Made by a program: the position numbers and the translations under genes. From NCBI GenBank assembly GCA_963739225.1, contig CAVTZQ010000002.1, positions 2,331 through 66,330 on the forward strand: a stretch of 64,000 bases of DNA, written 5' to 3'. Numbering within the stretch: the stretch's first letter is position 1; each line of letters opens with the position of its first letter. This DNA comes from an uncultured Acidobacteriota bacterium (GTDB lineage: Bacteria; Acidobacteriota; Thermoanaerobaculia; Thermoanaerobaculales; Thermoanaerobaculaceae). Below the pieces are notes generated by a model. It was not told where the DNA came from. It saw only the letters and a list, made by a program, of their open reading frames with translations, and made no database searches. Below, one piece after another: positions 4,871 through 61,425 of this stretch.

Positions 4871-5290
4871 GTTTTTTCGGGCTTCGCCCCATACCCCTTG
4901 CGTTCCTTCTGACTGCGTGACGGCTTCTGTTTTGCCAGGCGGGTGCGCGTCCGCTCGTCGCTTGCTCGCCCCCGCTCGCTGCGCGCCGAGACTCCCTCGA
5001 CCGCGACCCGGAAGCGCGTCCCGCGCCGGGGCCCCTCGGTGTCCGCATGAGACGGCGTCACCGACACCCCGTCCCGGTCCGCGCGCTGGGTCCCCGCGGT
5101 CTCGGGAGACATGGCCGCTGGCACCCGCATGGCGGGTTGAATACTCCCTGCCAGAATCCGTTTGGGCGGACCCTCACGGTCAAGCGTCTGCATTGGTGAG
5201 ACGGTTCAGGCAGGTCCGCGGCAAACGGGAGGGTGGTGGTGAGATCCGCCCCGCGGGCGGAAGGAGCCATGGCGCCGAAGCGTGCGGGCC
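4871..5290 (+). repeat. Copy A of dispersed GC-rich MITE-like repeat family (long form: unit 1 about 4934-5145 plus unit 2 about 5171-5289)
   Basis: Read directly. It shares long blocks with 29246-29444 and 58684-58925, and in reverse complement with 33916-34272 and 61135-61425. It starts immediately after the ahcY stop codon. Confidence 0.85.
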
Positions 5291-26857: not shown

Positions 26858-29242
26858 ATGGCGCGAGAGCTTGCTGCGCATGAGCTGCGGTGGCGGTGCC
26901 CTGAGGACTGGCTGCCGGCCGAGTCGACAGCCAAGATCGAGCCCTCGCAGGGGATCATCGGGCAGGCGCGCGCGGTGCGCGCCCTCGAGTTCGGCCTATC
27001 CGTGCCGTCGCTCGGCTTCAATGTCTTCGTGACCGGCCTCACGGGCACCGGCAGGATGACTGCCATCGAGCTCCACCTGCGGCCGCTGGCGGGCGATGGT
27101 GAGCCGCCCGACGACCTGCTCTTCGTCTTCAACTTCGCTCGTCCCGAGCAGCCCCGACTCCTGCGCCTTGCCGCCGGACGTGGCGTCGTCCTCCGCGACC
27201 GCCTGGAAAGGCTGCTGCGCGACATCTCCAAGGCCCTGCCGAGCATGTTCGAGGGGGAGGAGTTCCAGCAGCGTTTGGAGCTTGCCCTCGAGGACCTCAA
27301 GACCAAGCAGCAGGAACTCATCAAGGGTTTCGAGCGAAAGGTCCGGGCGGCCGGTTTCACACTCGTGCAGGTCCAGGTCGGATCGGTCACCCGGCCGGAG
27401 ATCCTACCGCTGGTGGAGGAGCGGCCGGTGACGCTCGAGAAGCTTCAGAGCCTCGCGGAGGAGGGCAAGTTCGACCGCGACAAGGCGACCGCGCTCGAGC
27501 AGGCGCACGGCAAGCTCTCCGAGGAGCTGCAGCGAGTCTTCCACGAGGTCATGGTGATGCGCGAGGAGATGGTGTCGCGCGCCGAGGAACTGCGCCGCGC
27601 CACCGTGGACCCACTGCTGAAGCAGGCGCTCTCCCAGGTCGCGCGGGCGGTCAAGGATCCCCGCGTCTCTCCGTACCTCGACGAGCTGCTGCAGGACATG
27701 TTGGAGCATCTGGAACTGTTCGGCGCCCACGACGGCGGCGAGGAGGGCGACCCGCTGCTGCGCTACCGGGTCAACGTTGTCGTGGACAACGGCAACACCA
27801 AGGGAAGGCCGATCATCATCGAGACCGAACCCTCCTACAACAACCTCTTCGGCACGATAGAGGCGAAGGTGGGGCAGAACCTGCAGTCCACCTCCGACCA
27901 CATGCGCATCCGGGCCGGGTCGCTCTTGCGCGCCAACGGGGGATTCCTGGCCGTCAACGCCTTCGACGCGGTCTCCGAGGCCGGTGTGTGGCCGGCGCTC
28001 AAGCGCGCCTTGCGCTACCGGCGCGTGGTGATCCGGCCTCGCGACATCCTGTTTGCGATCTCGGGGCAGGCGCTCCAGCCGGAGCCGGTCGAGATGGACG
28101 TCAAGGTCGTGATGATCGGGGACCGCGCCCTCTACGACCTGCTGCACGACGCCGACGAGGAGTTCCGCAAGATCTTCAAGGTGCTTGCCGACTTCGATAG
28201 CGAGATGCCCAGCGGGCGCGAGCAGGTGCAGGAGTTCCTCGCACTTATGGCCAAGATTGTGCGGGACGAGAAGCTTCCCCACATCGACCGCGGTGGGATG
28301 ACGGCCCTCGTCGAGGAGGCGGTGCGCCTGGCGCGCAACCGCAGGCGGATCTCGGCGCGGTTTTCCGACGTCGCCGACATTCTGCGCGAGGCTGCGTTCC
28401 TCGCGGGTGGCAAGCGGAAGAAGACGGTCGGAGTCGAGCACATCCACGCGGCGGTGCGGGCGCGACGCGATCGTCACTCCCTACCGGAGGAGAAGCTCAC
28501 CAAGTACATGCTCGACGATGTGCTCGTCGTGGCGACCGAAGGCGCGGTGATGGGCCAGGTCAACGGCCTCACCGTCTACGACCTGGGCTATCACGCCTTC
28601 GGGCTTCCAGGCCGGGTGACGGCGCGGGTCTCGCTCGGGCGCGAGGGCGTGATCAACATCGAGCGCGAGGCGCACATGTCCGGCAGCGTCCACGACAAGG
28701 GCGTGCTGATCCTGTCCGGGTTCCTGCGCGGGATGTTCGCGGCAGAGATGCCGTTCTCCATGACAGCCTCGATCGCGTTCGAGCAGTCGTACGGGGGCGT
28801 GGAGGGCGACAGCGCCTCCTCCACCGAGGTGTACGCGATCCTCTCCGCGCTCTCGGGGATCCCGATCAGGCAAGACCTTGGGGTGACCGGCTCGGTGGAC
28901 CAGAACGGGTGCATCCAGGCGATTGGGGGCGTCAACGAGAAGATCGAGGGGTTCTTCTCGCTGTGCGCGCAACGCGGCCTTTCGGGCACCCAGGGTGTGC
29001 TGATGCCGGAGGCAAACGTCGACGACCTGCAGCTCGACCCCGAGGTGGTGGCAGCAGTCGAGTGGGGCGGATTCCATGTCTACCCACTCTCGCGGATCGA
29101 GGAGGGGATCGAGCTGCTGATGGGCGTGCCCGCCGGCGTGCGCGGTCCCGACGGCACCTATCCGCCGGAGTCCGTCCTCGGTCGCTGCGCCGCTCGACTT
29201 GCCGAGATGGCCGAGCAGCTCCGCCACTACCGCGGGGTTTGA
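26858..29242 (+). CDS. Lon-like S16 protease of the LonC type (AAA-like domain with degenerate Walker motifs plus long helical insertion)
   Basis: ORF track, 794 aa. Walker-A-like GLTGTGRMT (Arg where Lys is expected, nt 27035-27061). Walker-B region GGFLAVNAFD lacks DE. The C-terminal Lon protease domain has GVEGDSASS (Ser) and GGVNEKIEG (Lys). Confidence 0.8.
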   Translation: MARELAAHELRWRCPEDWLPAESTAKIEPSQGIIGQARAVRALEFGLSVPSLGFNVFVTGLTGTGRMTAIELHLRPLAGDGEPPDDLLFVFNFARPEQPRLLRLAAGRGVVLRDRLERLLRDISKALPSMFEGEEFQQRLELALEDLKTKQQELIKGFERKVRAAGFTLVQVQVGSVTRPEILPLVEERPVTLEKLQSLAEEGKFDRDKATALEQAHGKLSEELQRVFHEVMVMREEMVSRAEELRRATVDPLLKQALSQVARAVKDPRVSPYLDELLQDMLEHLELFGAHDGGEEGDPLLRYRVNVVVDNGNTKGRPIIIETEPSYNNLFGTIEAKVGQNLQSTSDHMRIRAGSLLRANGGFLAVNAFDAVSEAGVWPALKRALRYRRVVIRPRDILFAISGQALQPEPVEMDVKVVMIGDRALYDLLHDADEEFRKIFKVLADFDSEMPSGREQVQEFLALMAKIVRDEKLPHIDRGGMTALVEEAVRLARNRRRISARFSDVADILREAAFLAGGKRKKTVGVEHIHAAVRARRDRHSLPEEKLTKYMLDDVLVVATEGAVMGQVNGLTVYDLGYHAFGLPGRVTARVSLGREGVINIEREAHMSGSVHDKGVLILSGFLRGMFAAEMPFSMTASIAFEQSYGGVEGDSASSTEVYAILSALSGIPIRQDLGVTGSVDQNGCIQAIGGVNEKIEGFFSLCAQRGLSGTQGVLMPEANVDDLQLDPEVVAAVEWGGFHVYPLSRIEEGIELLMGVPAGVRGPDGTYPPESVLGRCAARLAEMAEQLRHYRGV

Positions 29243-29245
29243 TTT

Positions 29246-29444
29246 GCCCCTCGGGTGAAGCGGCGCCTCGGGCCTTGCGCGTCCCCACGCGCTGCGGCCC
29301 GAGACTCCTTCGGCCACGACCCAGCAGCGCGCCTCGTCGCCGTGACCCTCGCGGTTCGGCCTGCGGCTGCCCGCGTCTCCCGGCGCCGATCCGTGCGCTG
29401 GGTCCCCGCGGCCTCCGGAGAGATTGCCGCTTCACCCGAGGGGC
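29246..29444 (+). mobile_element. Copy B of the repeat family: 199-bp MITE-like element with perfect 19-bp terminal inverted repeats
   Basis: GCCCCTCGGGTGAAGCGGC at 29246-29264 and its exact reverse complement at 29426-29444. The internal blocks are shared with copies A, D and E. It begins 4 nt after the Lon-like stop codon. Confidence 0.8.
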
Positions 29445-29974
29445 GTGTTTTCCCCACCCACCCAACACCTCGAGAGCAGGCGCCGTCGCGCTGATTCCGC
29501 CCGCTTCCCTCTCCCAGGCGAAGAGGGCCACGGTGAGGAGACGCGGCTCGCAGCTTCTTGAGGGATGGCTCCTGGCCACGTGGTACACCCCGGTAGCGGG
29601 CGGAGGACCGCTCGAATGCCGGCTGACACCAAGTGCACGACGACCGCACGGCGCCGAGGGGCCTATACTGGTTTTGTAGAGAAGGTCGGCGGGTTGAGGC
29701 ATGCGGAGGGCGGTGGATGTCTTGTGGGAGCCGCCGTATTGAGGTCACGCGGAGCCTGTGGGCGGGCTGGACCGACTGCAACTCCGCCTATCCCAGCTGA
29801 CTGCGCCGAAAGTCTGCATGCGCATGACGCAATTGGCTCGACATTTGGAACGCGCTAATGGGTCAAGGCCGCAGAGACAAACGCAGGTTTGGATGCCTTG
29901 TCGGCGGCGTTCTTAGAGTCTGTCTAATTCGCGTGAGTCGCCTTTTATAGCGCAGCGCGGTTTGGAGGGGGAAG

Positions 29975-30208
29975 ATGTACAAGAACGGTGAGGCAGCCTT
30001 AGATCGGATCCTGGAGCTTGTTGCCAAGTGTCCGAAGGAACTTCAGGAAAAATGCTTCGAGGTTCTGCTTTCCGGCTATGTGCAGCTCGAAGTCGGTGCA
30101 GTGACGCGGCATGTGCAACCACCGGGTGGCCAACCGGCGCAGCAGCCCCCGAAACAAATGCCGTCAGCTGAGTCAGCCATTCCTGCGACGGTCTCTTCCT
30201 CGATTTAA
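29975..30208 (+). CDS. Hypothetical small protein (helical N-terminus plus Pro/Gln-rich tail); may be the N-terminal part of the next ORF
   Basis: ORF track, 77 aa. GGAGGGGGAAG lies just upstream of the ATG. Lower-GC island. The next ORF is in the +1 frame and is open back to 30111, so a single-base indel could be splitting one gene. Confidence 0.45.
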   Translation: MYKNGEAALDRILELVAKCPKELQEKCFEVLLSGYVQLEVGAVTRHVQPPGGQPAQQPPKQMPSAESAIPATVSSSI

Positions 30209-30212
30209 GAAT

Positions 30213-30584
30213 ATGGCCAAACGCCTCGGGGTCGCGCTCCAGAAACTGGAAGCGCTGTTTGACTTTAGTGTGGACCCGTTTGGTTTGCATGCTGTAACGG
30301 TTCCTGGCAAGAACAGCGCGGAAAAGACCCGAAATGTCGCCCTTCTCGCTGCCTCGCGATCGTATCTTGCGACTGGTTCGTGGGTCGCGGATTGGCAAGA
30401 ACTAAAGTCGCTTTGTGTGGACCAAAACTGCTACGACAGCGCGAATCACGCGGGGAACCTCAAGAAGGGCTCTGGACTGCGGTTCAAGGCAGTTGACCCC
30501 GGGAAACCGGTGGAACTCTCTTCTGGAGGGATTAAGGAAGCAGAGAAGCTCCTTAAGACCCTTTGTGAAGGAAGTTCCGAGTGA
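30213..30584 (+). CDS. Hypothetical protein (124 aa), no family recognised
   Basis: ATG at 30213 inside ORF 30111..30584, 5 nt after the previous stop. Its stop overlaps the GTG start of the HEPN gene (GTGA at 30581-30584). Confidence 0.5.
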   Translation: MAKRLGVALQKLEALFDFSVDPFGLHAVTVPGKNSAEKTRNVALLAASRSYLATGSWVADWQELKSLCVDQNCYDSANHAGNLKKGSGLRFKAVDPGKPVELSSGGIKEAEKLLKTLCEGSSE

Positions 30585-31397
30585 TCCCGTCAAGCGAGGA
30601 CCTTGAGTCGTTCCTTGAACGGCTCAGGGAAGTGGACCGCGAGCTAGCCAAACTCAAAGGCGCGGAGGTGCGCAAAGCAGAGGTGCTCGCAACGATTAGG
30701 GCGGTGGCGAAGGATTGGTTGAGGTTCTCGGAACGGCTGTGCGCGGCGGAGACACTCCCACAGGCGAATTTAGCGGCCATTGATTCCCAGTTCGAAACAA
30801 TACTCCAAAGTACGAACGCACGCACACGATCGTCCGCCTATCGTAGCAAACTGGCACCCGTAATCGCTTCGTTCACCGACAAGATTGTGGTTCCGATCAT
30901 TCGGCATGAAGGCAGTCCGGCGCAGGTTGCATCACGCCAACTTCTGGCGGAGTTTGCTGGAAAAGTGTCCGTCGACGAGCAGTCGTACCTTGAAGAGGCG
31001 GCGCGATGTCTCGCGAGCCGGTGTAATCGTGCAGCAATCATCCTCCTTTGGGCCGCCGCCATATCTAGATTTCACTCCGCGATCGAGAAAATTGGCTTTA
31101 ACGCATATAACTTGGCTTTGAGTCAGGCCACGCAGAAGAAAGGCCATCCTTTCAACCGCGTTTCCAAGACTAACGTCTTGAGTTTGCCGGAGCTGCAGCG
31201 CGCCCGGGACTTTGATCTTCTGGTGGTTGGCATGGAGCTATGGGGGTACGATCTCCAAGTCTTTGAAGAAATGGATCGCCTTTTCTGGAATTCGTAATGG
31301 TGCCGCCCATCCAGGAATGCTTAAACCCAGCGCATTGGATGTCCAGCAGTATGCGTCCAAGGTTGGGACATATGTCTTCAGCGTCGTGCCAGCCTAA
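30581..31397 (+). pseudogene. HEPN-domain (R-x4-H) protein with N-terminal coiled coil; reading frame broken by one extra T in a T4 run (31281-31284)
   Basis: ORF 30581..31297 ends ...VFEEMDRLFWNS*. The +1 frame (ORF 31212..31397) reads ...SGIRNGAAHPGMLKPSALDVQQYASKVGTYVFSVVPA*. Removing one T gives EEMDRLSGIRNGAAHPG. R is at 31293-31295 and H at 31308-31310. An upstream helix EEAARCLASRCNRAAIILLWAAA is typical of the first HEPN helix. Confidence 0.6.
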
Positions 31398-31810
31398 GGC
31401 GACAAACCCCGCCGGCACAGGACGGGCCCAAGAACAGCGGACGCCCGTGATTCCGAAGGGTAGATAGCCAGCGGAAGGGATGCCGTGAGCAGGAAGCTGT
31501 AGCTGATCTTTTCGGCTGCGATCATTCTTCTCGCGGCGATCTTTCTTCTCTCCGGGTTCGTGTACCACTGGCCAATCGTGGTCGGGCTCAGGACAATCCC
31601 CTTCGCGTTGTCCTACGTCAGCTTCCCCGCTTCGGCGGTGAATTGCGCCTGGGCTGTCTGGCTGCTTCGTGTGGGAGAAGCCGAGGTGACTATGGCGTCG
31701 CGGGTCTGGGCAGCTACCAACCGCGTTATGCTGGCCCTTGACCAGCGCTCGACGCAGCCACTGGAGGGCGGCCTAAAGTGCTGCCGAAGAATGCGAGGTG
31801 TTCCACATGG

Positions 31811-32203
31811 ATGGGTCAGGGTCGCTCGAGTCGCAAGGCCTCCGGTAAGTCGCCGCCCAGCCAGTTACGAGGGATTCTCGACGACGCCATTCGATACTGG
31901 GAGTCACGGCGTCTCGCCTATAACCTTGTCCTCACAGTGGTGGTCGTCACCTGGGTCGCGTCGACGTGGCCGCATTTCCGTGGGGCATTCACGCTGAAGT
32001 CGGTTCTCGCACTTGTCATCCTTGCAACGCTTGCCAATGTCTGCTACTGCGCCGCCTACGTCGTGGACATTCCGATGCAGCACTCGTCCTTCTGTTTGGT
32101 GTGGCGCCGCCGGCGGTGGCTGCTTTGGGCTGTGGGGATGCTGTTCGCAGTTGCGCTCGCGAACTATTGGATTGCGGACGAGATCTATCCGTATGTCCGC
32201 TGA
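31811..32203 (+). CDS. Small integral membrane protein (3-4 TM), hypothetical
   Basis: ORF 31778..32203. Hydrophobic segments LVLTVVVVTWVAS, VLALVILATLANVCYCAAYVV and WLLWAVGMLFAVALANYW. The start (GTG 31778 or ATG 31811) is uncertain. Confidence 0.45.
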   Translation: MGQGRSSRKASGKSPPSQLRGILDDAIRYWESRRLAYNLVLTVVVVTWVASTWPHFRGAFTLKSVLALVILATLANVCYCAAYVVDIPMQHSSFCLVWRRRRWLLWAVGMLFAVALANYWIADEIYPYVR

Positions 32204-32312
32204 CGGCATAATGGTACCTAGCCGCGACCTGCAACGGACTTCTACTCGCTGGTGCTCTCGCGCGCGCTGAAAGGCGGCGCTGCACGTTGGTGTTACGAGG
32301 GGAGGGGTGAGA

Positions 32313-32731
32313 ATGCCTGAGAGCGCACTGGCGAGGAAGATGAAGCTGAAGGCGGGAGCGCGGGCGGCGGTGATCAACGCGCCGGTCGGGTACCTGAAGG
32401 AGCTTGCACCGCTGCCAGCCGGCGTCGAGCTCTCGGAGAAGCTGCAGGGAAAGTTCGACTGGATTCAGGTGTTCGTACGGACCAGCGCGTGAGCTGACAC
32501 GGCTCGTGCCGAAGTTGATCAAGGCGCTCGCAGATGAGGGCCTGCTCTGGATCTCATTCGCGAAAGGGGACCTCCGGGATGCAGACGGACCTCACGCGCG
32601 ACAAAGGGTGGGACGCACTCAAAGGCGTCGACCTCAAGTGGATCACGTTGATCTCGGTGAACGACACGTGGTCCGCGTTCGCGCTGAGGCAGTATCGAAC
32701 GGGCGAGACCAAGCAAGACGCCTGGCGCTGA
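32313..32731 (+). pseudogene. DUF3052-like protein gene broken by two single-base insertions (about 32490 and about 32569)
   Basis: Three consecutive frames read MPESALARKMKLKAGARAAVINAPVGYLKELAPLPAGVELSEKLQGKFDWIQVFVRTSA | ELTRLVPKLIKALADEGLLWISFAKG | TSGMQTDLTRDKGWDALKGVDLKWITLISVNDTWSAFALRQYR. Together they resemble DUF3052 family proteins as I recall them. Confidence 0.6.
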
Positions 32732-33720: not shown

Positions 33721-34349
33721 ACTCCGTGGAGGTTTTCTTTCGCCCCGCGGGCTATGAGCGGTCGCTCGGGCTGCGCGTCGAGCGCAGCCCTCCGACCCGC
33801 CGTCGCGTGCGACCGAGCAGGCACAGGCCGGCGTGCGGACCCTCGCTGTTCCCCTCCCTCGCACGAGACGCTCGGTCGGGGCCAGCGTCTCCACCCGCCG
33901 GTCTGACCGCTCGGTGCCCGCACGCTCCGGCGCCATGGCTCCTGTCGCCCGCGGGGCGGACTTCACCACCACCCTCCCGTGCGCCGCGGACCTGCCTGGG
34001 CCGTCTCGCCAAAGCTGGCGCGTGACCGTGGGGGTTCGCCCAACCGGATCCTGGGTGGGGGGTAATCAATCCGCCCGGCGCTTGCAAGCGGCCATGCCTC
34101 CCGAGGCCGCGGGGACCCAGCGCGCGGCCCGGGACGGGGCGTCGGTGACGCGTGTCTTGCGGACACCGAGGGGCCCCGGCTCGGGACGCGCTGCTGGGTC
34201 GCGGTCGAGGGAGTCTCGGAGCGCAGCAAACGCGGGCGAGCAAGCGACGAGCGGCCGCGCACCCGCCGGGCACAACAAAGCCGTCACGCAGTGGCAAGGA
34301 AGAGGACGACCGCTCAAAGCTCGCGGGGCAACAAAGCCCTCCACGGAGT
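33721..34349. mobile_element. Copy C of the repeat family: 629-bp composite element with about 44-bp imperfect terminal inverted repeats; units 2 and 1 in reverse orientation relative to copy A
   Basis: ACTCCGTGGAGGTTTTCTTTCGCCCCGCGGGCTATGAGCGGTCG at 33721-33764 matches the reverse complement of 34307-34349 (ACTCCGTGGAGGGCTTTGTTGCCCCGCGAGCTTTGAGCGGTCG). 33916-34035 and 34066-34272 match copy A in reverse complement. Confidence 0.8.
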
Positions 34350-34419
34350 AGCAAGGAAGACACTAGCGGTTGAGTCGGAGGGCAATGGGAGCGTAGACTC
34401 CACCCTCCCTGGGAGGGGC

Positions 34420-35739
34420 ATGCTCGAGGCGATCTCCGACCGGCTGCAGAAGGTGTTCAAGACCCTGCGGGGGGAGGGACACCTCACCGAGAGGCACGTG
34501 GACGACGCGCTCGCGGAGATCCGCCGCGCGCTGCTGGCGGCTGATGTGGCCCTTCCTGTTGTGAAGGATTTCATAAGCAGAGTGCGGGAGCGCGCCCTCG
34601 GCAAGGACGTCCTGGGCTCGCTCTCGCCGGCGCAGCAGGTCCTGAAGATCGTGCACGAGGAGCTCACGCGCCTGCTCGGCGGTGAGGAGCGCCCGCTCAA
34701 GTTTAAGGGGTTCCCCGCGCCGATCATGCTGGTGGGTCTGCAGGGGACCGGCAAGACGACCACGGCCGCGAAGGTCGGGGTGTTCATCAAGGGCAAGCTC
34801 GGCAAGCACGTGCTGCTCGTCCCCGCCGACACCCAGCGCCCGGCGGCGCGCGAGCAGCTCGAGCAGCTCGGGGCGCAGGCCGGCCTGCCGGTGCTCGACA
34901 CTCGCCCGTGGCCGTCTCCCCCGGAGATCGCCCGCGCGGCCCTCGTGGAGGCGCGGCGCAAGGGGTTCGAGGTGATCCTCTTCGACACAGCCGGGCGCCT
35001 GCACGTGGACGAGGCGCTTATGGCGGAGCTCACCGAGCTGCACGGCATCCTGGCGCCCAGCGAGGTGTTGTTCGTCGCCGACGCGATGACCGGGCAGGAC
35101 GCGGTGCGCCAGGCAGAGGCGTTCGCGGCGCGGCTGCCGCTGTCTGGCGTCATCCTCACCAAGCTCGACGGCGACGCCCGCGGCGGCGCCGCGCTTTCGG
35201 TCGTCTCGGTGGCGGGCAAGCCGATCCGGCTGGCAGGTGTGGGAGAGCGGCTGGAGGACCTCGAGCTTTTCCACCCCGACCGCATGGCGGCACGCATCCT
35301 GGGGCTGGGCGACATGGCGACCCTCTTCGAGAAGGCCCAGGCCGTGGTTGACGAGAAGAAGGCCGCCGAGCTTGAGCGCAAGCTGAAGAAGGAGGGGTTC
35401 GACCTCGACGACCTGCGCGACCAGCTCAAGCAGATGCGGGGTGGCGGGTTCCTCAACCAGTTGGTGGACCTGATGCCGGGCGCCAGGGCGCTCAAGGCGC
35501 CACAGGTGGACGACAAGAAGCTGGTCCGCTTCGAGGCGATCATCTGCTCGATGACCCCCAAGGAGCGGCGACACCCGGAGGTCATCAACGGCTCGCGCCG
35601 CAAGCGCATCGCCCGCGGGGCGGGGAGCACGGTGGAGGAGGTCAATCGGCTCCTGCGCCAGTACGGCGAGATGAAGCGCCTGGTCAGGCGCCTGGGCAGC
35701 GGTGACCCGCGCAAGGTGCTGAAATCGATGGGCTTGTAG
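34420..35739 (+). CDS. ffh: Signal recognition particle protein Ffh
   Basis: ATG at 34420 (GGGAGGGG upstream) inside ORF 34291..35739. MLEAISDRLQKVFKTLRG, GLQGTGKTTT, DTAGRL, TKLDGDARGG, and an M-domain with a Met-rich tail. Confidence 0.95.
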   Translation: MLEAISDRLQKVFKTLRGEGHLTERHVDDALAEIRRALLAADVALPVVKDFISRVRERALGKDVLGSLSPAQQVLKIVHEELTRLLGGEERPLKFKGFPAPIMLVGLQGTGKTTTAAKVGVFIKGKLGKHVLLVPADTQRPAAREQLEQLGAQAGLPVLDTRPWPSPPEIARAALVEARRKGFEVILFDTAGRLHVDEALMAELTELHGILAPSEVLFVADAMTGQDAVRQAEAFAARLPLSGVILTKLDGDARGGAALSVVSVAGKPIRLAGVGERLEDLELFHPDRMAARILGLGDMATLFEKAQAVVDEKKAAELERKLKKEGFDLDDLRDQLKQMRGGGFLNQLVDLMPGARALKAPQVDDKKLVRFEAIICSMTPKERRHPEVINGSRRKRIARGAGSTVEEVNRLLRQYGEMKRLVRRLGSGDPRKVLKSMGL

Positions 35740-58682: not shown

Positions 58683-58704
58683 TTCACTGCCGTGAAGTTT
58701 TTTT
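58683..58704 (+). terminator. Weak intrinsic-terminator-like hairpin TTCACtgccGTGAA followed by G plus T7, at the outer end of repeat copy D
   Basis: Read directly, 11 nt after the methyltransferase stop. The stem is only 5 bp. The equivalent end of copy E (about 61395-61425) carries GAAACagcagTTTC next to an A/T run. Confidence 0.3.
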
Positions 58705-58925
58705 GCCCGCCGGGTGAAGCGCTTTTCGGGTCTTGCGCGTCCCCACGCGCTGCGGCCCGCAACTCCTCTGGCCGCGACCCAGCAGCGCGGCCCGGCCCGG
58801 GGCCCCTCGGTGTCTGCGTGAGGCAGCATCCCCGACACCCCGTCCCGGCTCCGCGCGCTGGGGACCCCGCGGCCTCCGGAGGCATGGCCGCTGGCACCCG
58901 CGGGGCGGATTGAATGCCCCGCCCG
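58684..58925 (+). repeat. Copy D of the repeat family (unit 1)
   Basis: Near-identical blocks to copy A, e.g. GGGGCCCCTCGGTGTC...GACACCCCGTCCCGG...CGCGCTGGG.ACCCCGCGGCCTCCGGAGGCATGGCCGCTGGCACCCGCGGGGCGGATTGAAT. Confidence 0.85.
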
Positions 58926-59644: not shown

Positions 59645-59741
59645 AGAGGCTGTGGCTACCGCAACGCTGGCCGGTTTCCTTTGGGTAGCCGAATGTGCGT
59701 GAGGCGTCGCGCAGCGTACAATATGCCTCCGGAGAAGAGCC

Positions 59742-60212
59742 ATGAAAATCGTGGCAGCGATTTGTAATGTCGTTTGGTTTGGATTCACCTGCTTGGTTCT
59801 CGTGACCGACGGTTTTCCTAAGGAAGCCGGGTACATTTTTGTCTCACTGTTGCATCTGCTGACTCCGCTTCTCACCTTGGTGGTGCTTTTCCATAGCGGA
59901 GCGAGCGATGGTTGGTTAGGCCTTCGTATGAAAAGGAAGGCATTCGAGGAACAGAGGAAGATTGATAAGCCATCTTCCATGAGCACTTTTATGAAAATCG
60001 TGGCAATCATCTGTAATGTCGCCTTGTTAGGATTCATTTGCTGGGCCCTCCTAAGCCAGCCCCCTCACCCAGAGGAAGAAGGCTTCGTTGCTTTCGTAGT
60101 GGTGTCGGTGGTGACTCCGATTCTCAGCGTGGTGGTGCTTTTCCGTGGTGGGGCGAGCGATGGTTGGCCAAGCCTTCATATGAAAAGGAACGCGTTAGAG
60201 GAACCAAGGTAG
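59742..60212 (+). CDS. Small membrane protein built from two tandem 83-codon modules (2 TM each)
   Basis: ORF track, 156 aa. MKIVAAICNVVWFGFTCLVL...VVLFHSGASDGWLGLRMKRKAFEEQRKID, then MKIVAIICNVALLGFICWAL...VVLFRGGASDGWPSLHMKRNALEEPR*. The DNA units start at 59742 and 59991. The lowest-GC stretch of the window. Confidence 0.6.
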   Translation: MKIVAAICNVVWFGFTCLVLVTDGFPKEAGYIFVSLLHLLTPLLTLVVLFHSGASDGWLGLRMKRKAFEEQRKIDKPSSMSTFMKIVAIICNVALLGFICWALLSQPPHPEEEGFVAFVVVSVVTPILSVVVLFRGGASDGWPSLHMKRNALEEPR

Positions 60213-60455
60213 ATTGATGACCTTGCAAAGAAACACGACGCCTGACAAGTCGCCCGAGCGGACGCCGCCTGCACCTCGCTTCGTCATCCCGCTTGCAGTC
60301 CGTTGACGTTCTCTGTAGTCGCAAAGCGTCGAATCCGCTGGCACGGTCGTCAGCGGGGTGAGCAAGCAGGCGGGCTGCCCTCGCTCGGCGCAGTTCGGCG
60401 CCGGTCAGCCCCCGCGTTGGGCGGACACGAGCAAGACTGGAGGCGCGACCCGCTG

Positions 60456-61134: not shown

Positions 61135-61425
61135 GGGCGGGCATTCCATCCGCCCCTCGGTTGAAGCGGGCATCTCTCGTGAAGCCGCAGGGCGATTGGT
61201 TGGGTGGGGGCATACCGCCCGGGGGGTGGCGTCACCTTTCCGCTGAAGCTCGCGGGCACCGAGCGCGGCGATTGCCGTGAGGTGTCGCGGCGGGCGGAAC
61301 CCGAACGACGAGGGGCCCCACGGTGAGCGGCGCTGCTCGGTCGCGAGCGGAAGCGTCGCGAGCGAAGCGAACGAGCGACGCCACCCACCGGGAAAAAAGA
61401 AATCTTGAAACAGCAGTTTCGAAAA
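61135..61425 (-). repeat. Copy E of the repeat family (diverged, inverted relative to copies A, B and D)
   Basis: CGCCCCTCGGTTGAAGCGGGCATCTCTC matches the reverse complement of the right end of copy B. GAGGGGCCCCACGGTGAGCGGCGCTGCTCGGTCGCGAGCGG...CGCCACCCACCGGGAAAAAAG parallels copy C and the reverse complement of the left end of copy D. Confidence 0.7.

What the first reader, a model, noticed from the sequence alone, without database searches (positions are those of the whole stretch)
29975..31397. Candidate novel HEPN-based module: two uncharacterised small ORFs translationally coupled to a HEPN (R-x4-H) protein, with no nucleotidyltransferase partner, in a low-GC island
Three same-strand ORFs are packed tightly at 29975-30208, 30213-30584 and 30581-31397, with a 4-nt gap and then a GTGA start/stop overlap. 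They sit in the lowest-GC part of a cassette between core genes (Lon-like protease and ffh).

The last ORF ends, after frame correction, in ...EEMDRLSGIRNGAAHPGMLKPSALDVQQYASKV. This carries the R-N-x-x-A-H signature of HEPN RNase domains. Further upstream is a helix (EEAARCLASRCNRAAIILLWAAA) that resembles the first HEPN helix. The N-terminal 130 aa look coiled-coil.

It is established that HEPN domains are the toxic or effector RNases of many toxin-antitoxin, abortive-infection and CRISPR-associated systems. They are classically paired with MNT nucleotidyltransferase antitoxins. Here the partners are a 77-aa helical/PQ-rich protein and a 124-aa protein that I cannot place in any family. The two may be a single protein of about 200 aa, because the second lies in the +1 frame and that frame is open back to 30111. 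This arrangement could be an undescribed TA or defence configuration.
Basis: partly seen in the sequence, partly recalled or inferred. Interest (0 to 1): 0.72.

Follow-up and report, generated by a model that had tools for sequence, protein, structure and literature searches.

The report
Broken two-gene HEPN RNase module
This is a horizontally acquired two-gene cassette, an uncharacterised partner protein followed by a HEPN-type RNase, that is widespread but unstudied in environmental bacteria; the copy in this window is knocked out by two single-base insertions.

Summary
The three ORFs are at the stated coordinates, but they come from two genes, not three.

- **Gene structure.** In every relative examined, ORF1 and ORF2 form one ~200-aa protein (A). 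ORF3 plus its shifted tail forms one 271-aa protein (B). A's stop overlaps B's start by 4 nt.
- **Damage in this window.** The window carries exactly two extra bases, C30193 in A and T31286 in B. T31286 cuts off B's catalytic motif.
- **B is a HEPN protein.** R238 and H243 (R-x4-H) are invariant. A profile of the C-terminal domain matches the solved "Dandelion-hepn" structure (9wx2, E=1.5e-6). Relatives match the PD-T7-3/DARNA and Csx1/Csm6 HEPN models.
- **A is unannotated.** It belongs to no annotated family. Its model only weakly resembles winged-helix proteins.
- **Linkage.** A lies directly upstream of B in 16 of 16 contexts reached through B. This holds even where B is only 20-26% identical. 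No nucleotidyltransferase and no conserved third gene is present.
- **Context.** Neighbouring genes are integrases, transposases and toxin or restriction genes.

My best reading is an undescribed HEPN toxin/partner module of toxin-antitoxin or abortive-infection type, present here as a decayed copy. Its function is inferred, not shown. Interest is moderate: a new variant of a known kind.

The parts
29975..30584 (+). Gene A: partner protein of about 200 aa, split here by a 1-nt insertion. It has an N-terminal helical hairpin, a disordered P/Q-rich linker and a C-terminal domain that weakly resembles a winged helix.
   Evidence: Relatives encode one ORF of 195-207 aa that aligns across ORF1+ORF2. 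AF2 model pLDDT is 83.6, with residues 44-64 disordered. Foldseek top hits are winged-helix proteins, but E is 0.3-2. No Pfam, NCBIfam, PADLOC, PHROG or PDB match.
29975..30208 (+). ORF1: the N-terminal part of gene A (residues 1-73 plus 4 out-of-frame codons and a stop).
30193..30193 (+). Extra C (GACGGT[C]TCTTCC) that shifts the frame of gene A. Removing it restores ...IPATVLPRFKNM...
   Evidence: DNA alignment A3 with L011, L012 and L001. The same base is present in the Logan assembly L007 of run ERR10755944.
30213..30584 (+). ORF2: the C-terminal part of gene A (residues 80-202). Its ATG replaces a Thr/Ala codon (ACG/GCT/ACA) found in relatives.
30581..31397 (+). Gene B: a 271-aa HEPN protein of the PF27235 'AF_1680' family. 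Its start overlaps the stop of A (GTGA). It is interrupted by a 1-nt insertion.
   Evidence: 249 homologues, nearly all exactly 271 aa and 50-86% identical. AF2 model pLDDT is 94.3 and all-helical. DNA alignment.
30581..30955 (+). B N-terminal helical domain (residues 1-125), function unknown. Conserved R81, R83, G111, P113 and R119.
   Evidence: In other proteins it is replaced by other domains joined to the same HEPN domain.
30956..31397 (+). B C-terminal HEPN domain (residues 126-271).
   Evidence: Domain profile A5 against PDB 9wx2_A 'Dandelion-hepn': E=1.5e-6, with the RxxxxH motifs aligned. Relatives hit PD-T7-3, Csx1/Csm6 and Cas13c HEPN models. Relatives also give sub-threshold hits to HEPN_RiboL-PSP, DUF4145 and HEPN_Swt1.
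31286..31286 (+). Extra T (CTTTTC[T]GG) that shifts the frame of B seven nucleotides before the catalytic motif. The annotated product stops at 31297 (238 aa).
   Evidence: The Logan contig L007 ends exactly on this base. P0001 is the deposited 238-aa product.
31293..31310 (+). Codons for R238-N-G-A-A-H243, the R-x4-H HEPN catalytic motif. They are out of frame with the rest of B in this window.
29940..29974 (+). Upstream leader with a Shine-Dalgarno-like GGAGGGGGAAG. It is partly conserved in the closest relatives. No sigma-70 consensus promoter was found.

Best explanation
The locus is a mobile two-gene operon. Gene A encodes a ~200-aa protein with a helical hairpin, a flexible linker and a domain that may be a winged helix. 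Its stop overlaps the start of gene B. Gene B encodes a 271-aa protein whose C-terminal half is a HEPN ribonuclease domain carrying the R-x4-H active-site motif.

By analogy with other HEPN systems, B most likely dimerises to form an RNase that cleaves tRNA, rRNA or mRNA and arrests growth. A most likely binds B and holds it inactive until a stress or phage signal releases it, and A possibly also binds DNA. That would make this a toxin/partner or abortive-infection module.

In this genome the cassette arrived by horizontal transfer. It has since been inactivated by one extra base in each gene. The insertion in B removes the catalytic motif, so here the module is a decaying remnant.

Shown here:
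- the two-gene structure
- the strict A-B linkage
- the HEPN homology and the invariant catalytic residues
- the foreign base composition
- the two insertions

Inferred:
- RNase activity and toxicity
- A acting as inhibitor or regulator
- the winged-helix assignment for A
- the insertions being real mutations rather than sequence errors
For: **Two genes, not three**
- Relatives have one 195-207-aa ORF in place of ORF1+ORF2 and one 271-aa ORF in place of ORF3 plus its tail. The 4-nt overlap is the same.

**Linkage**
- A lies directly upstream of B in 16 of 16 distinct contexts reached through B alone. Three of these have B only 20-26% identical, with A-profile E-values of 3.5e-34, 4.8e-32 and 4.4e-14.
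- B lies downstream of A in 2 of 2 contexts reached through A.
- No conserved third gene was seen.

**HEPN domain**
- R238, N239 and H243 are invariant. R and H are invariant in the broad domain alignment.
- The domain profile hits PDB 'Dandelion-hepn' at E=1.5e-6 with the motifs aligned.
- Relatives hit the PD-T7-3/DARNA HEPN model (1.6e-5 and 2.6e-7) and CARF-HEPN, Csx1/Csm6 and Cas13c models.
- The only recurrent Pfam families among 131 relatives, apart from N-terminal ATPase fusion domains seen in two proteins, are HEPN-clan ones.
- DARNA is an experimentally shown tRNA anticodon nuclease with R117x4H122 (bioRxiv 10.64898/2026.02.22.705581).

**Mobility and conflict context**
- Module GC is 0.50-0.58 in hosts of GC 0.52-0.70.
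- Distribution is patchy across Planctomycetota, Acidobacteriota, Nitrospirota, Kryptoniota, Proteobacteria and Bacteroidales.
- Neighbours include integrases, transposases, Fic, ParE/Phd, PIN, NYN and type I R-M genes.
- The same HEPN domain is fused to an HATPase_c_3-type ATPase, LRR, ParB, integrase and membrane modules.

**Partner precedent**
- In the type IX retron Kva2, a winged-helix protein alone mitigates the toxicity of its HEPN RNase (bioRxiv 10.64898/2026.07.14.738597).

**Inactivation**
- Exactly two 1-nt insertions are seen relative to three relatives.
- Both are present in a second assembly of run ERR10755944.
- Long genes elsewhere in the window look intact.
- Similar disruptions occur in two other genomes.
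Against: - No experiment exists for this family, so RNase activity, toxicity and neutralisation are all inferred.
- Structure search gave no significant match for B. The best PDB E-value was 0.5, and Csm6 appeared only at E=1. The BFVD search was also negative. The HEPN assignment therefore rests on sequence profiles.
- The winged-helix call for A rests on Foldseek hits with E=0.3-2 and probability around 0.5. PDB profile searches found nothing.
- In a Luteimonas MAG, A is disrupted after residue 155 while B is intact. This fits poorly with A being an essential antitoxin.
- A third neighbouring gene (32307-32731) also seems frameshifted. Local sequence quality, rather than biology, could therefore explain the frameshifts.
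- No promoter or operator was identified.
Confidence: 0.55

Rival explanations
1. The components are the same, but A is not an antitoxin. It is a nucleic-acid or phage-signal sensor that switches on an otherwise inactive HEPN protein B. That would make this a two-component defence system rather than a toxin-antitoxin pair.
For: - The nearest characterised HEPN relative, DARNA/PD-T7-3, is inactive until ssDNA presented by phage SSB activates it.
- A Luteimonas genome keeps B intact while A is truncated. That is tolerable only if B alone is harmless or if the truncated A still works.
- A is large (200 aa) and may contain a nucleic-acid-binding fold.
Against: - An upstream partner with a 4-nt overlap is the classic antitoxin-toxin layout.
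- In the window and in L015 both genes are hit, and B is hit at or next to its active site. This is what would be expected if B is dangerous once A is damaged.
- In the type IX retron the winged-helix partner suppresses HEPN toxicity.
Confidence: 0.25
2. The two frameshifts are sequencing or consensus errors, for example in a low-coverage or strain-variable island of a metagenome-assembled genome. In that case the organism carries an intact, working module.
For: - A third gene 1 kb downstream (32307-32731) also changes frame, so errors may cluster in this island.
- The Logan contig differs from the window at 30210-30212 and breaks exactly at 31286, which suggests heterogeneity in the reads.
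- L015, from a long-read MAG, shows similar breaks.
Against: - Neither insertion extends a homopolymer run.
- Both insertions are reproduced by a second assembler from run ERR10755944.
- Long genes in the other ~60 kb look intact.
Confidence: 0.3
3. One reading: this is a true three-protein module. Gene A has undergone fission into a 77-aa and a 123-aa protein that both still work.
For: - The split falls at the end of the disordered linker, between two folded parts.
- ORF2 has gained an ATG where relatives have a Thr or Ala codon, 4 nt after the ORF1 stop.
Against: - Among the loci examined, only this genome's own sequence (window and L007) shows this particular split. The other two splits of A, in L015 and L020, fall elsewhere.
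- B is simultaneously truncated before its catalytic motif, so there is no active effector left to serve.
Confidence: 0.08
4. The pair is a housekeeping RNA-processing or regulatory factor rather than a conflict system.
For: Some HEPN proteins are non-toxic or regulatory, for example MtlR, Las1 and Swt1 (Biol Direct 8:15).
Against: - Distribution is rare and patchy, with 9 hits among 185,579 species genomes.
- Base composition is foreign to the host.
- Flanks are variable and carry mobile-element and toxin genes.
- The pair has been lost or disrupted repeatedly.
Confidence: 0.05
5. The shift in B is a programmed +1 ribosomal frameshift at CUU UUC U.
For: A CUU-to-UUU slip would restore the frame.
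Against: - About 250 homologues are unshifted 271-aa ORFs.
- There is no stop or rare codon in the A site.
- A second, unrelated shift sits in gene A.
Confidence: 0.02

Closest known systems
DARNA / PD-T7-3 (PDB 'Dandelion', 9wxf and 9wx2)
   Same: The HEPN domains are homologous, with R-x4-H aligned. The domain profile gives E=1.5e-6 to 9wx2, and relatives hit the PADLOC PD-T7-3 model over positions 4-121. DARNA is a shown tRNA anticodon nuclease acting by abortive infection.
   Different: DARNA is a single ~456-aa protein with the HEPN domain at the N terminus and a Pds5-like ssDNA-sensing C-terminal domain. B is 271 aa with the HEPN domain at the C terminus, an unrelated N-terminal domain and a separate partner gene. 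The window protein itself hits the PD-T7-3 model only at E=0.04.
HEPN-MNT (HepT-MntA) toxin-antitoxin systems
   Same: Both are two overlapping co-directional genes with a HEPN RNase as the presumed toxin.
   Different: No nucleotidyltransferase gene is present in any locus. The HEPN domain is not of the DUF86 type, and no such Pfam hit was found. Control by AMPylation is therefore not expected.
Type IX retron (Retron-Kva2) HEPN + winged-helix effector pair
   Same: A HEPN RNase is paired with a ~200-245-aa helical/winged-helix protein that by itself mitigates HEPN toxicity. This is the best functional analogy for A and B.
   Different: No reverse transcriptase or ncRNA lies nearby in the window or in related loci. 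Gene order is reversed. The retron HEPN lacks the canonical R-x4-6-H motif, which B has. No sequence similarity was detected, and PADLOC gave no hit.
Swt1/Abi2, RiboL-PSP and DUF4145 HEPN families (Anantharaman et al. 2013, Biol Direct 8:15)
   Same: Relatives of B's HEPN domain give sub-threshold hits to exactly these Pfam models. They also show the ParB and membrane fusions listed for this clade, plus an ATPase fusion of a different type.
   Different: All hits are below the Pfam gathering thresholds. The A partner and B's N-terminal domain are not mentioned in that survey.
Pfam PF27235 'AF_1680'
   Same: Most B homologues carry this precomputed Pfam label. B therefore belongs to an already catalogued family.
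   Different: The model is not in the local Pfam copy, so its description could not be read. No paper mentions it.

Membership tests
HEPN superfamily | Conserved R-x4-6-H motif, with a polar residue after the R | tested here: met
   R238-N-x-x-A-H243 is invariant in 72 homologues. R and H are invariant in a 45-sequence domain alignment reaching down to 21% identity.
HEPN superfamily | Homology to a domain with a solved HEPN fold | tested here: met
   Profile A5 against PDB 9wx2_A 'Dandelion-hepn': E=1.5e-6 over 120 positions, with the motifs aligned. Relatives hit Csx1/Csm6/Cas13c and PD-T7-3 HEPN models.
HEPN superfamily | Four-helix up-down bundle confirmed by structure comparison | tested here: inconclusive
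   The AF2 model is confident and all-helical. Whole-protein Foldseek gave nothing significant: PDB best E=0.5, Csm6 at E=1, and BFVD negative. A domain-only search could not be run.
HEPN superfamily | Metal-independent RNase activity | not testable with these tools
   Needs biochemistry.
HEPN-MNT (HepT/MntA) TA | Adjacent minimal nucleotidyltransferase antitoxin | tested here: not met
   A has no NTP_transf_2/Polbeta hit. No such gene is next to B in any locus examined.
DARNA / PD-T7-3 | Single ~430-460-aa protein with an N-terminal HEPN domain and a C-terminal ssDNA-binding domain | tested here: not met
   B is 271 aa with the HEPN domain at the C terminus. PADLOC PD-T7-3 gives E=0.04 over 28 residues only.
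Type II-like toxin-antitoxin module (generic) | Two small co-directional, overlapping genes with conserved linkage on mobile or variable DNA | tested here: met
   4-nt overlap. Linkage in 16/16 and 2/2 contexts. Flanks are variable and mobile-element-rich.
Type II-like toxin-antitoxin module (generic) | Toxin arrests growth and the partner neutralises it | not testable with these tools
   Needs expression tests. The L020 case, with A disrupted and B intact, is a caution.
Type II-like toxin-antitoxin module (generic) | Partner carries a DNA-binding domain for autoregulation | tested here: inconclusive
   Foldseek top hits are MarR, F93 and other winged-helix proteins, but with E=0.3-2. No sequence-profile support. 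No operator was found.
Type IX retron | Reverse transcriptase and msr/msd ncRNA next to the HEPN and WH genes | tested here: not met
   No reverse-transcriptase domain among the neighbouring genes that have Pfam annotation, and no Rfam hit.
Pfam PF27235 (AF_1680) | Match to the family model | tested here: inconclusive
   Homologues at E down to 1e-144 carry the precomputed label, some only weakly. The model is absent from the local Pfam copy, so the window protein could not be scored directly.

The most novel reading that the evidence does not exclude
The A-B pair is a widespread, so far undescribed anti-phage or toxin-antitoxin system. Its new ~200-aa partner family, possibly a nucleic-acid-binding winged-helix protein, gates a DARNA-like HEPN tRNA/rRNA nuclease by direct binding. 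This would be a control mode distinct from MNT AMPylation, RNA antitoxins and cyclic-oligoadenylate activation.
Probability: 0.35. Interest if true: 0.6.

Novelty: new variant of a known kind. Interest (0 to 1): 0.45.

Why it matters
HEPN RNases are the effector of many bacterial immune and toxin systems, including Cas13, Csm6, HepT, DARNA and retron IX. What differs between those systems, and what is of interest, is how the RNase is kept silent and then released.

This module pairs a canonical HEPN domain with a partner family that has no annotation. The pairing is strictly conserved across at least six bacterial phyla. If the partner proves to be a new kind of HEPN inhibitor or sensor, it adds a control mechanism and a new candidate defence system to the catalogues.

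The copy in this window is of little functional interest because it is broken. It does illustrate how such cassettes are acquired and then decay.

Tried and rejected
- **Direct family scans.** Pfam, PADLOC, NCBIfam and PHROGs scans of the three products gave nothing usable.
- **Structure search.** Whole-protein Foldseek of B against PDB and BFVD gave no significant hits. The HEPN call therefore had to come from sequence profiles.
- **A against PDB.** Profile searches with A found nothing.
- **Island ends.** I considered that the inverted repeats at 29260-29460 and 33912-34278 were terminal repeats of the island. I rejected this because the same repeat occurs at 4928-5289, 58698-58920 and 61309-61363.
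- **Mobile carriers.** No relatives were found in plasmids, phages or viral contigs.
- **Literature.** Searches for 'AF_1680' and 'Dandelion' found no relevant paper.
- **Gene at 32307-32731.** I guessed from memory that it is a DUF3052-like protein. A stitched translation gave no Pfam hit, so that name is dropped. Only the change of frame stands.
- **Expression signals.** No sigma-70 promoter was found, and the one terminator-like hairpin is not above chance.
- **Source organism.** It could not be named.
Full report
**1. What is in the sequence**

The + strand carries ORFs at 29975-30208 (77 aa), 30213-30584 (123 aa) and 30581-31297 (238 aa). There is a 4-nt gap between the first two and a GTGA stop/start overlap between the last two. 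After 31297 the reading continues in another frame to 31397, giving ...GIRNGAAHPGMLKPSALDVQQYASKVGTYVFSVVPA.

GC falls to 0.54-0.58 here, against 0.67-0.72 in the surroundings. Third-position GC is 0.63, against 0.83-0.92 in neighbouring genes. The flanking genes are a LonB/LonC-like protease (26858-29242) and ffh (34291-35739). A flavin-reductase/rubredoxin gene lies between on the other strand.

**2. Two genes, not three, and both broken**

A search with the frame-corrected ORF3 found 249 homologues. Nearly all are exactly 271 aa and 50-86% identical. The only 238-aa one is this contig's own deposited product.

In related loci the gene upstream of the 271-aa gene is a single ORF of 195-207 aa that aligns across ORF1 plus ORF2.

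A DNA alignment of the window with three relatives shows exactly two differences in length. One is an extra C at 30193 (GACGGT[C]TCTTCC). The other is an extra T at 31286 (CTTTTC[T]GG).
- Removing C30193 gives ...IPATVLPRFKNMAKRL..., which matches ...IPPAVLPRFKNTAKRL... in relatives.
- T31286 lies seven nucleotides before the R-x4-H codons (31293-31310), so the annotated product lacks the catalytic motif.

I call the two genes A (29975-30584) and B (30581-31397).

**3. Are the insertions real?**

Evidence that they are real:
- Neither insertion extends a homopolymer run.
- A Logan assembly of run ERR10755944 (L007) matches window 29432-31286 at 99.9%. It carries the extra C, and its last base is the extra T.
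- Long genes elsewhere in the window (715-917 aa) look intact.

Evidence that they may be errors:
- The Logan contig differs from the window at 30210-30212 and ends exactly at the second site, which suggests heterogeneity in the reads.
- A further gene at 32307-32731 also changes frame, judged by third-position GC.

I put about 0.65-0.7 on real mutations and about 0.3 on sequence error. Read mapping would settle it.

The module is also disrupted in two other genomes. In an Acidobacteriota MAG (L015) both genes are hit, and B is hit immediately after the catalytic His. In a Luteimonas MAG (L020) only A is hit, after residue 155.

**4. B is a HEPN protein**

Direct scans of B against the local Pfam, PADLOC and NCBIfam libraries gave nothing significant. 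PHROGs gave one match, to a family of unknown function. Homologues carry a precomputed label, PF27235 'AF_1680'. That model is newer than the local Pfam copy.

Conservation:
- In a 72-sequence alignment, R238, N239 and H243 are invariant.

Wider relatives:
- A full HMMER search of 1.84 billion representatives found 510 clusters.
- Many have the same ~270-285-aa architecture.
- Others have only the C-terminal domain (residues ~118-268), joined to an HATPase_c_3-type ATPase, LRR repeats, a tyrosine integrase, ParB_N or a multi-pass membrane region.

Family matches among relatives:
- Among 131 of these proteins, the only recurrent Pfam families, apart from N-terminal ATPase fusion domains seen in two proteins, are HEPN_RiboL-PSP, DUF4145 and HEPN_Swt1. 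All hits are sub-threshold, and all three families are HEPN families.
- A domain-only alignment of 45 sequences reaching down to 21% identity keeps W, R and H invariant.
- As a profile, that alignment matches PDB 9wx2_A 'Dandelion-hepn' at E=1.5e-6 over 120 positions, with RnncaHP aligned to RHLSAHP. It also matches the 460-aa 'Dandelion' chain, present as 12 chains, at E=1.3e-4.
- Relatives hit the PADLOC PD-T7-3 model over its HEPN part (E=1.6e-5 and 2.6e-7). They also hit CARF-HEPN, Csx1/Csm6 and Cas13c models.

What PD-T7-3 is:
- PD-T7-3 has been renamed DARNA. It is a dodecameric, ssDNA-activated tRNA anticodon nuclease with an N-terminal HEPN domain carrying R117x4H122 (bioRxiv 10.64898/2026.02.22.705581).
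- From its size and its 12 chains, 'Dandelion' looks like the same kind of protein. That is my inference.

Structure:
- The AF2 model of B is confident (pLDDT 94.3) and all-helical.
- Whole-protein Foldseek searches were uninformative.
- The fold is therefore supported by sequence profiles, not by structure comparison.

**5. A is an unannotated family**

- Size: 119 close homologues, and 367 with a broader profile. None has a Pfam domain or a name.
- AF2 model (pLDDT 83.6): an N-terminal helical hairpin, a disordered P/Q-rich linker (residues 44-64), and a C-terminal H-H-H-beta-beta-H unit.
- Foldseek against the PDB: nothing significant. Most of the top hits are winged-helix proteins such as MarR/NadR, STIV F93, SSV1 F-93, AF1382 and the MUS81 WH domain, at E=0.3-2 and probability around 0.5.
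- PDB profile searches: nothing.

The winged-helix assignment is a lead, not a result.

**6. Linkage and context**

- A lies directly upstream of B, same strand, overlapping or within a few bases, in 16 of 16 distinct contexts reached through B alone.
  - These include nine species-representative genomes: Ca. Kuenenia, Acidobacteriota, Kryptoniota, Ralstonia sp. 25mfcol4.1, Novilysobacter longmucuonensis, Luteimonas, Xanthomonadaceae and others.
  - They also include three B relatives only 20-26% identical.
- Starting from A, B lies downstream in 2 of 2 contexts: a Nitrospira MAG and a metagenome contig carrying a distant A.
- There is no conserved third gene.
- Neighbours vary: integrases, IS/Y1 transposases, Fic, ParE/Phd, PIN_12, NYN, a type I restriction subunit and a methylase-LexA fusion.
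- Module GC stays at 0.50-0.58 whatever the host GC.
- No copy was found in the plasmid, phage or viral-contig collections.

**7. Mechanism**

The best-supported reading is a mobile two-gene HEPN toxin/partner module. B would dimerise through its HEPN domain into an RNase. A, co-translated from the overlapping upstream gene, would bind and restrain it and might bind nucleic acid.

The closest functional precedent is the type IX retron Kva2. There a winged-helix protein surrounds the HEPN active site and by itself mitigates HEPN toxicity (bioRxiv 10.64898/2026.07.14.738597). Our loci have no reverse transcriptase or ncRNA, and no sequence similarity to that system was detected.

The main rival is that A is a sensor or activator, as DARNA's sensing domain is. 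The Luteimonas case, with A broken and B intact, favours that rival.

All of the following are inferred: activity, toxicity and the direction of control.

**8. Comparison and novelty**

- The module is not HEPN-MNT, because it has no nucleotidyltransferase.
- It is not DARNA, because the architecture differs.
- It is not a retron.
- Its HEPN domain sits near the Swt1/Abi2, RiboL-PSP and DUF4145 assemblage of the 2013 HEPN survey. That survey does not mention this pair.
- B's family exists in a recent Pfam release, but I found no paper on it.

I rate the module a new variant of a known kind. It is moderately interesting as a family. The window copy itself is of low interest because it is degraded.

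Noticed in passing
window 4928-5289, 29260-29460, 33912-34278, 58698-58920, 61309-61363: A dispersed high-GC intergenic repeat family with a core of about 230 nt, 70-91% identical between copies. Two copies flank the low-GC island in inverted orientation. One has a perfect 19-nt inverted repeat (29246-29264 / 29426-29444). There is no Rfam match. It could be a MITE/REP-like element or an unknown structured RNA.
   Followed up: partly
window 32307-32731 (+): A gene with host-like composition (third-position GC 0.83-0.90) whose coding frame shifts from the frame of 32307, via that of 32404, to that of 32534. It is apparently another frameshifted gene 1 kb downstream of the module. A stitched 140-aa translation has no Pfam hit.
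   Followed up: partly
window 31560-32203 (+): An ORF of 141-153 aa that looks by eye like a multi-pass membrane protein. Its composition is intermediate (third-position GC 0.72) and it has no Pfam hit. It may be further cargo of the same island.
   Followed up: no
P0341, P0369, P0343, P0377, P0384, P0311 (one search hits): The same HEPN domain type is fused to an HATPase_c_3-type ATPase (P0341 and P0369; P0341's N terminus also hits PADLOC type II REase models), LRR repeats, a tyrosine integrase, ParB_N and a multi-pass membrane region. The integrase-HEPN fusion is unusual.
   Followed up: partly
L015 5397-6808; L020 5407-6810: Independent disruptions of the module in other genomes. In the Acidobacteriota MAG both genes are hit, and B is hit one base after the catalytic His codon. 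In the Luteimonas MAG only A is hit: a short replaced segment with a terminator-like hairpin follows residue 155, and B is intact.
   Followed up: partly
L001 8831-9370; L025 7832-8344: A NYN-domain (PF01936) RNase gene lies just downstream of the module in two otherwise unrelated contexts. This may be coincidence or a loose association.
   Followed up: no
window 59703-60218 (+): Two tandem paralogous small ORFs about 250 nt apart (repeats 59742-59801/59991-60050 and 59821-59966/60073-60218, 77-78% identical). They sit in another region of lower third-position GC (0.59).
   Followed up: no
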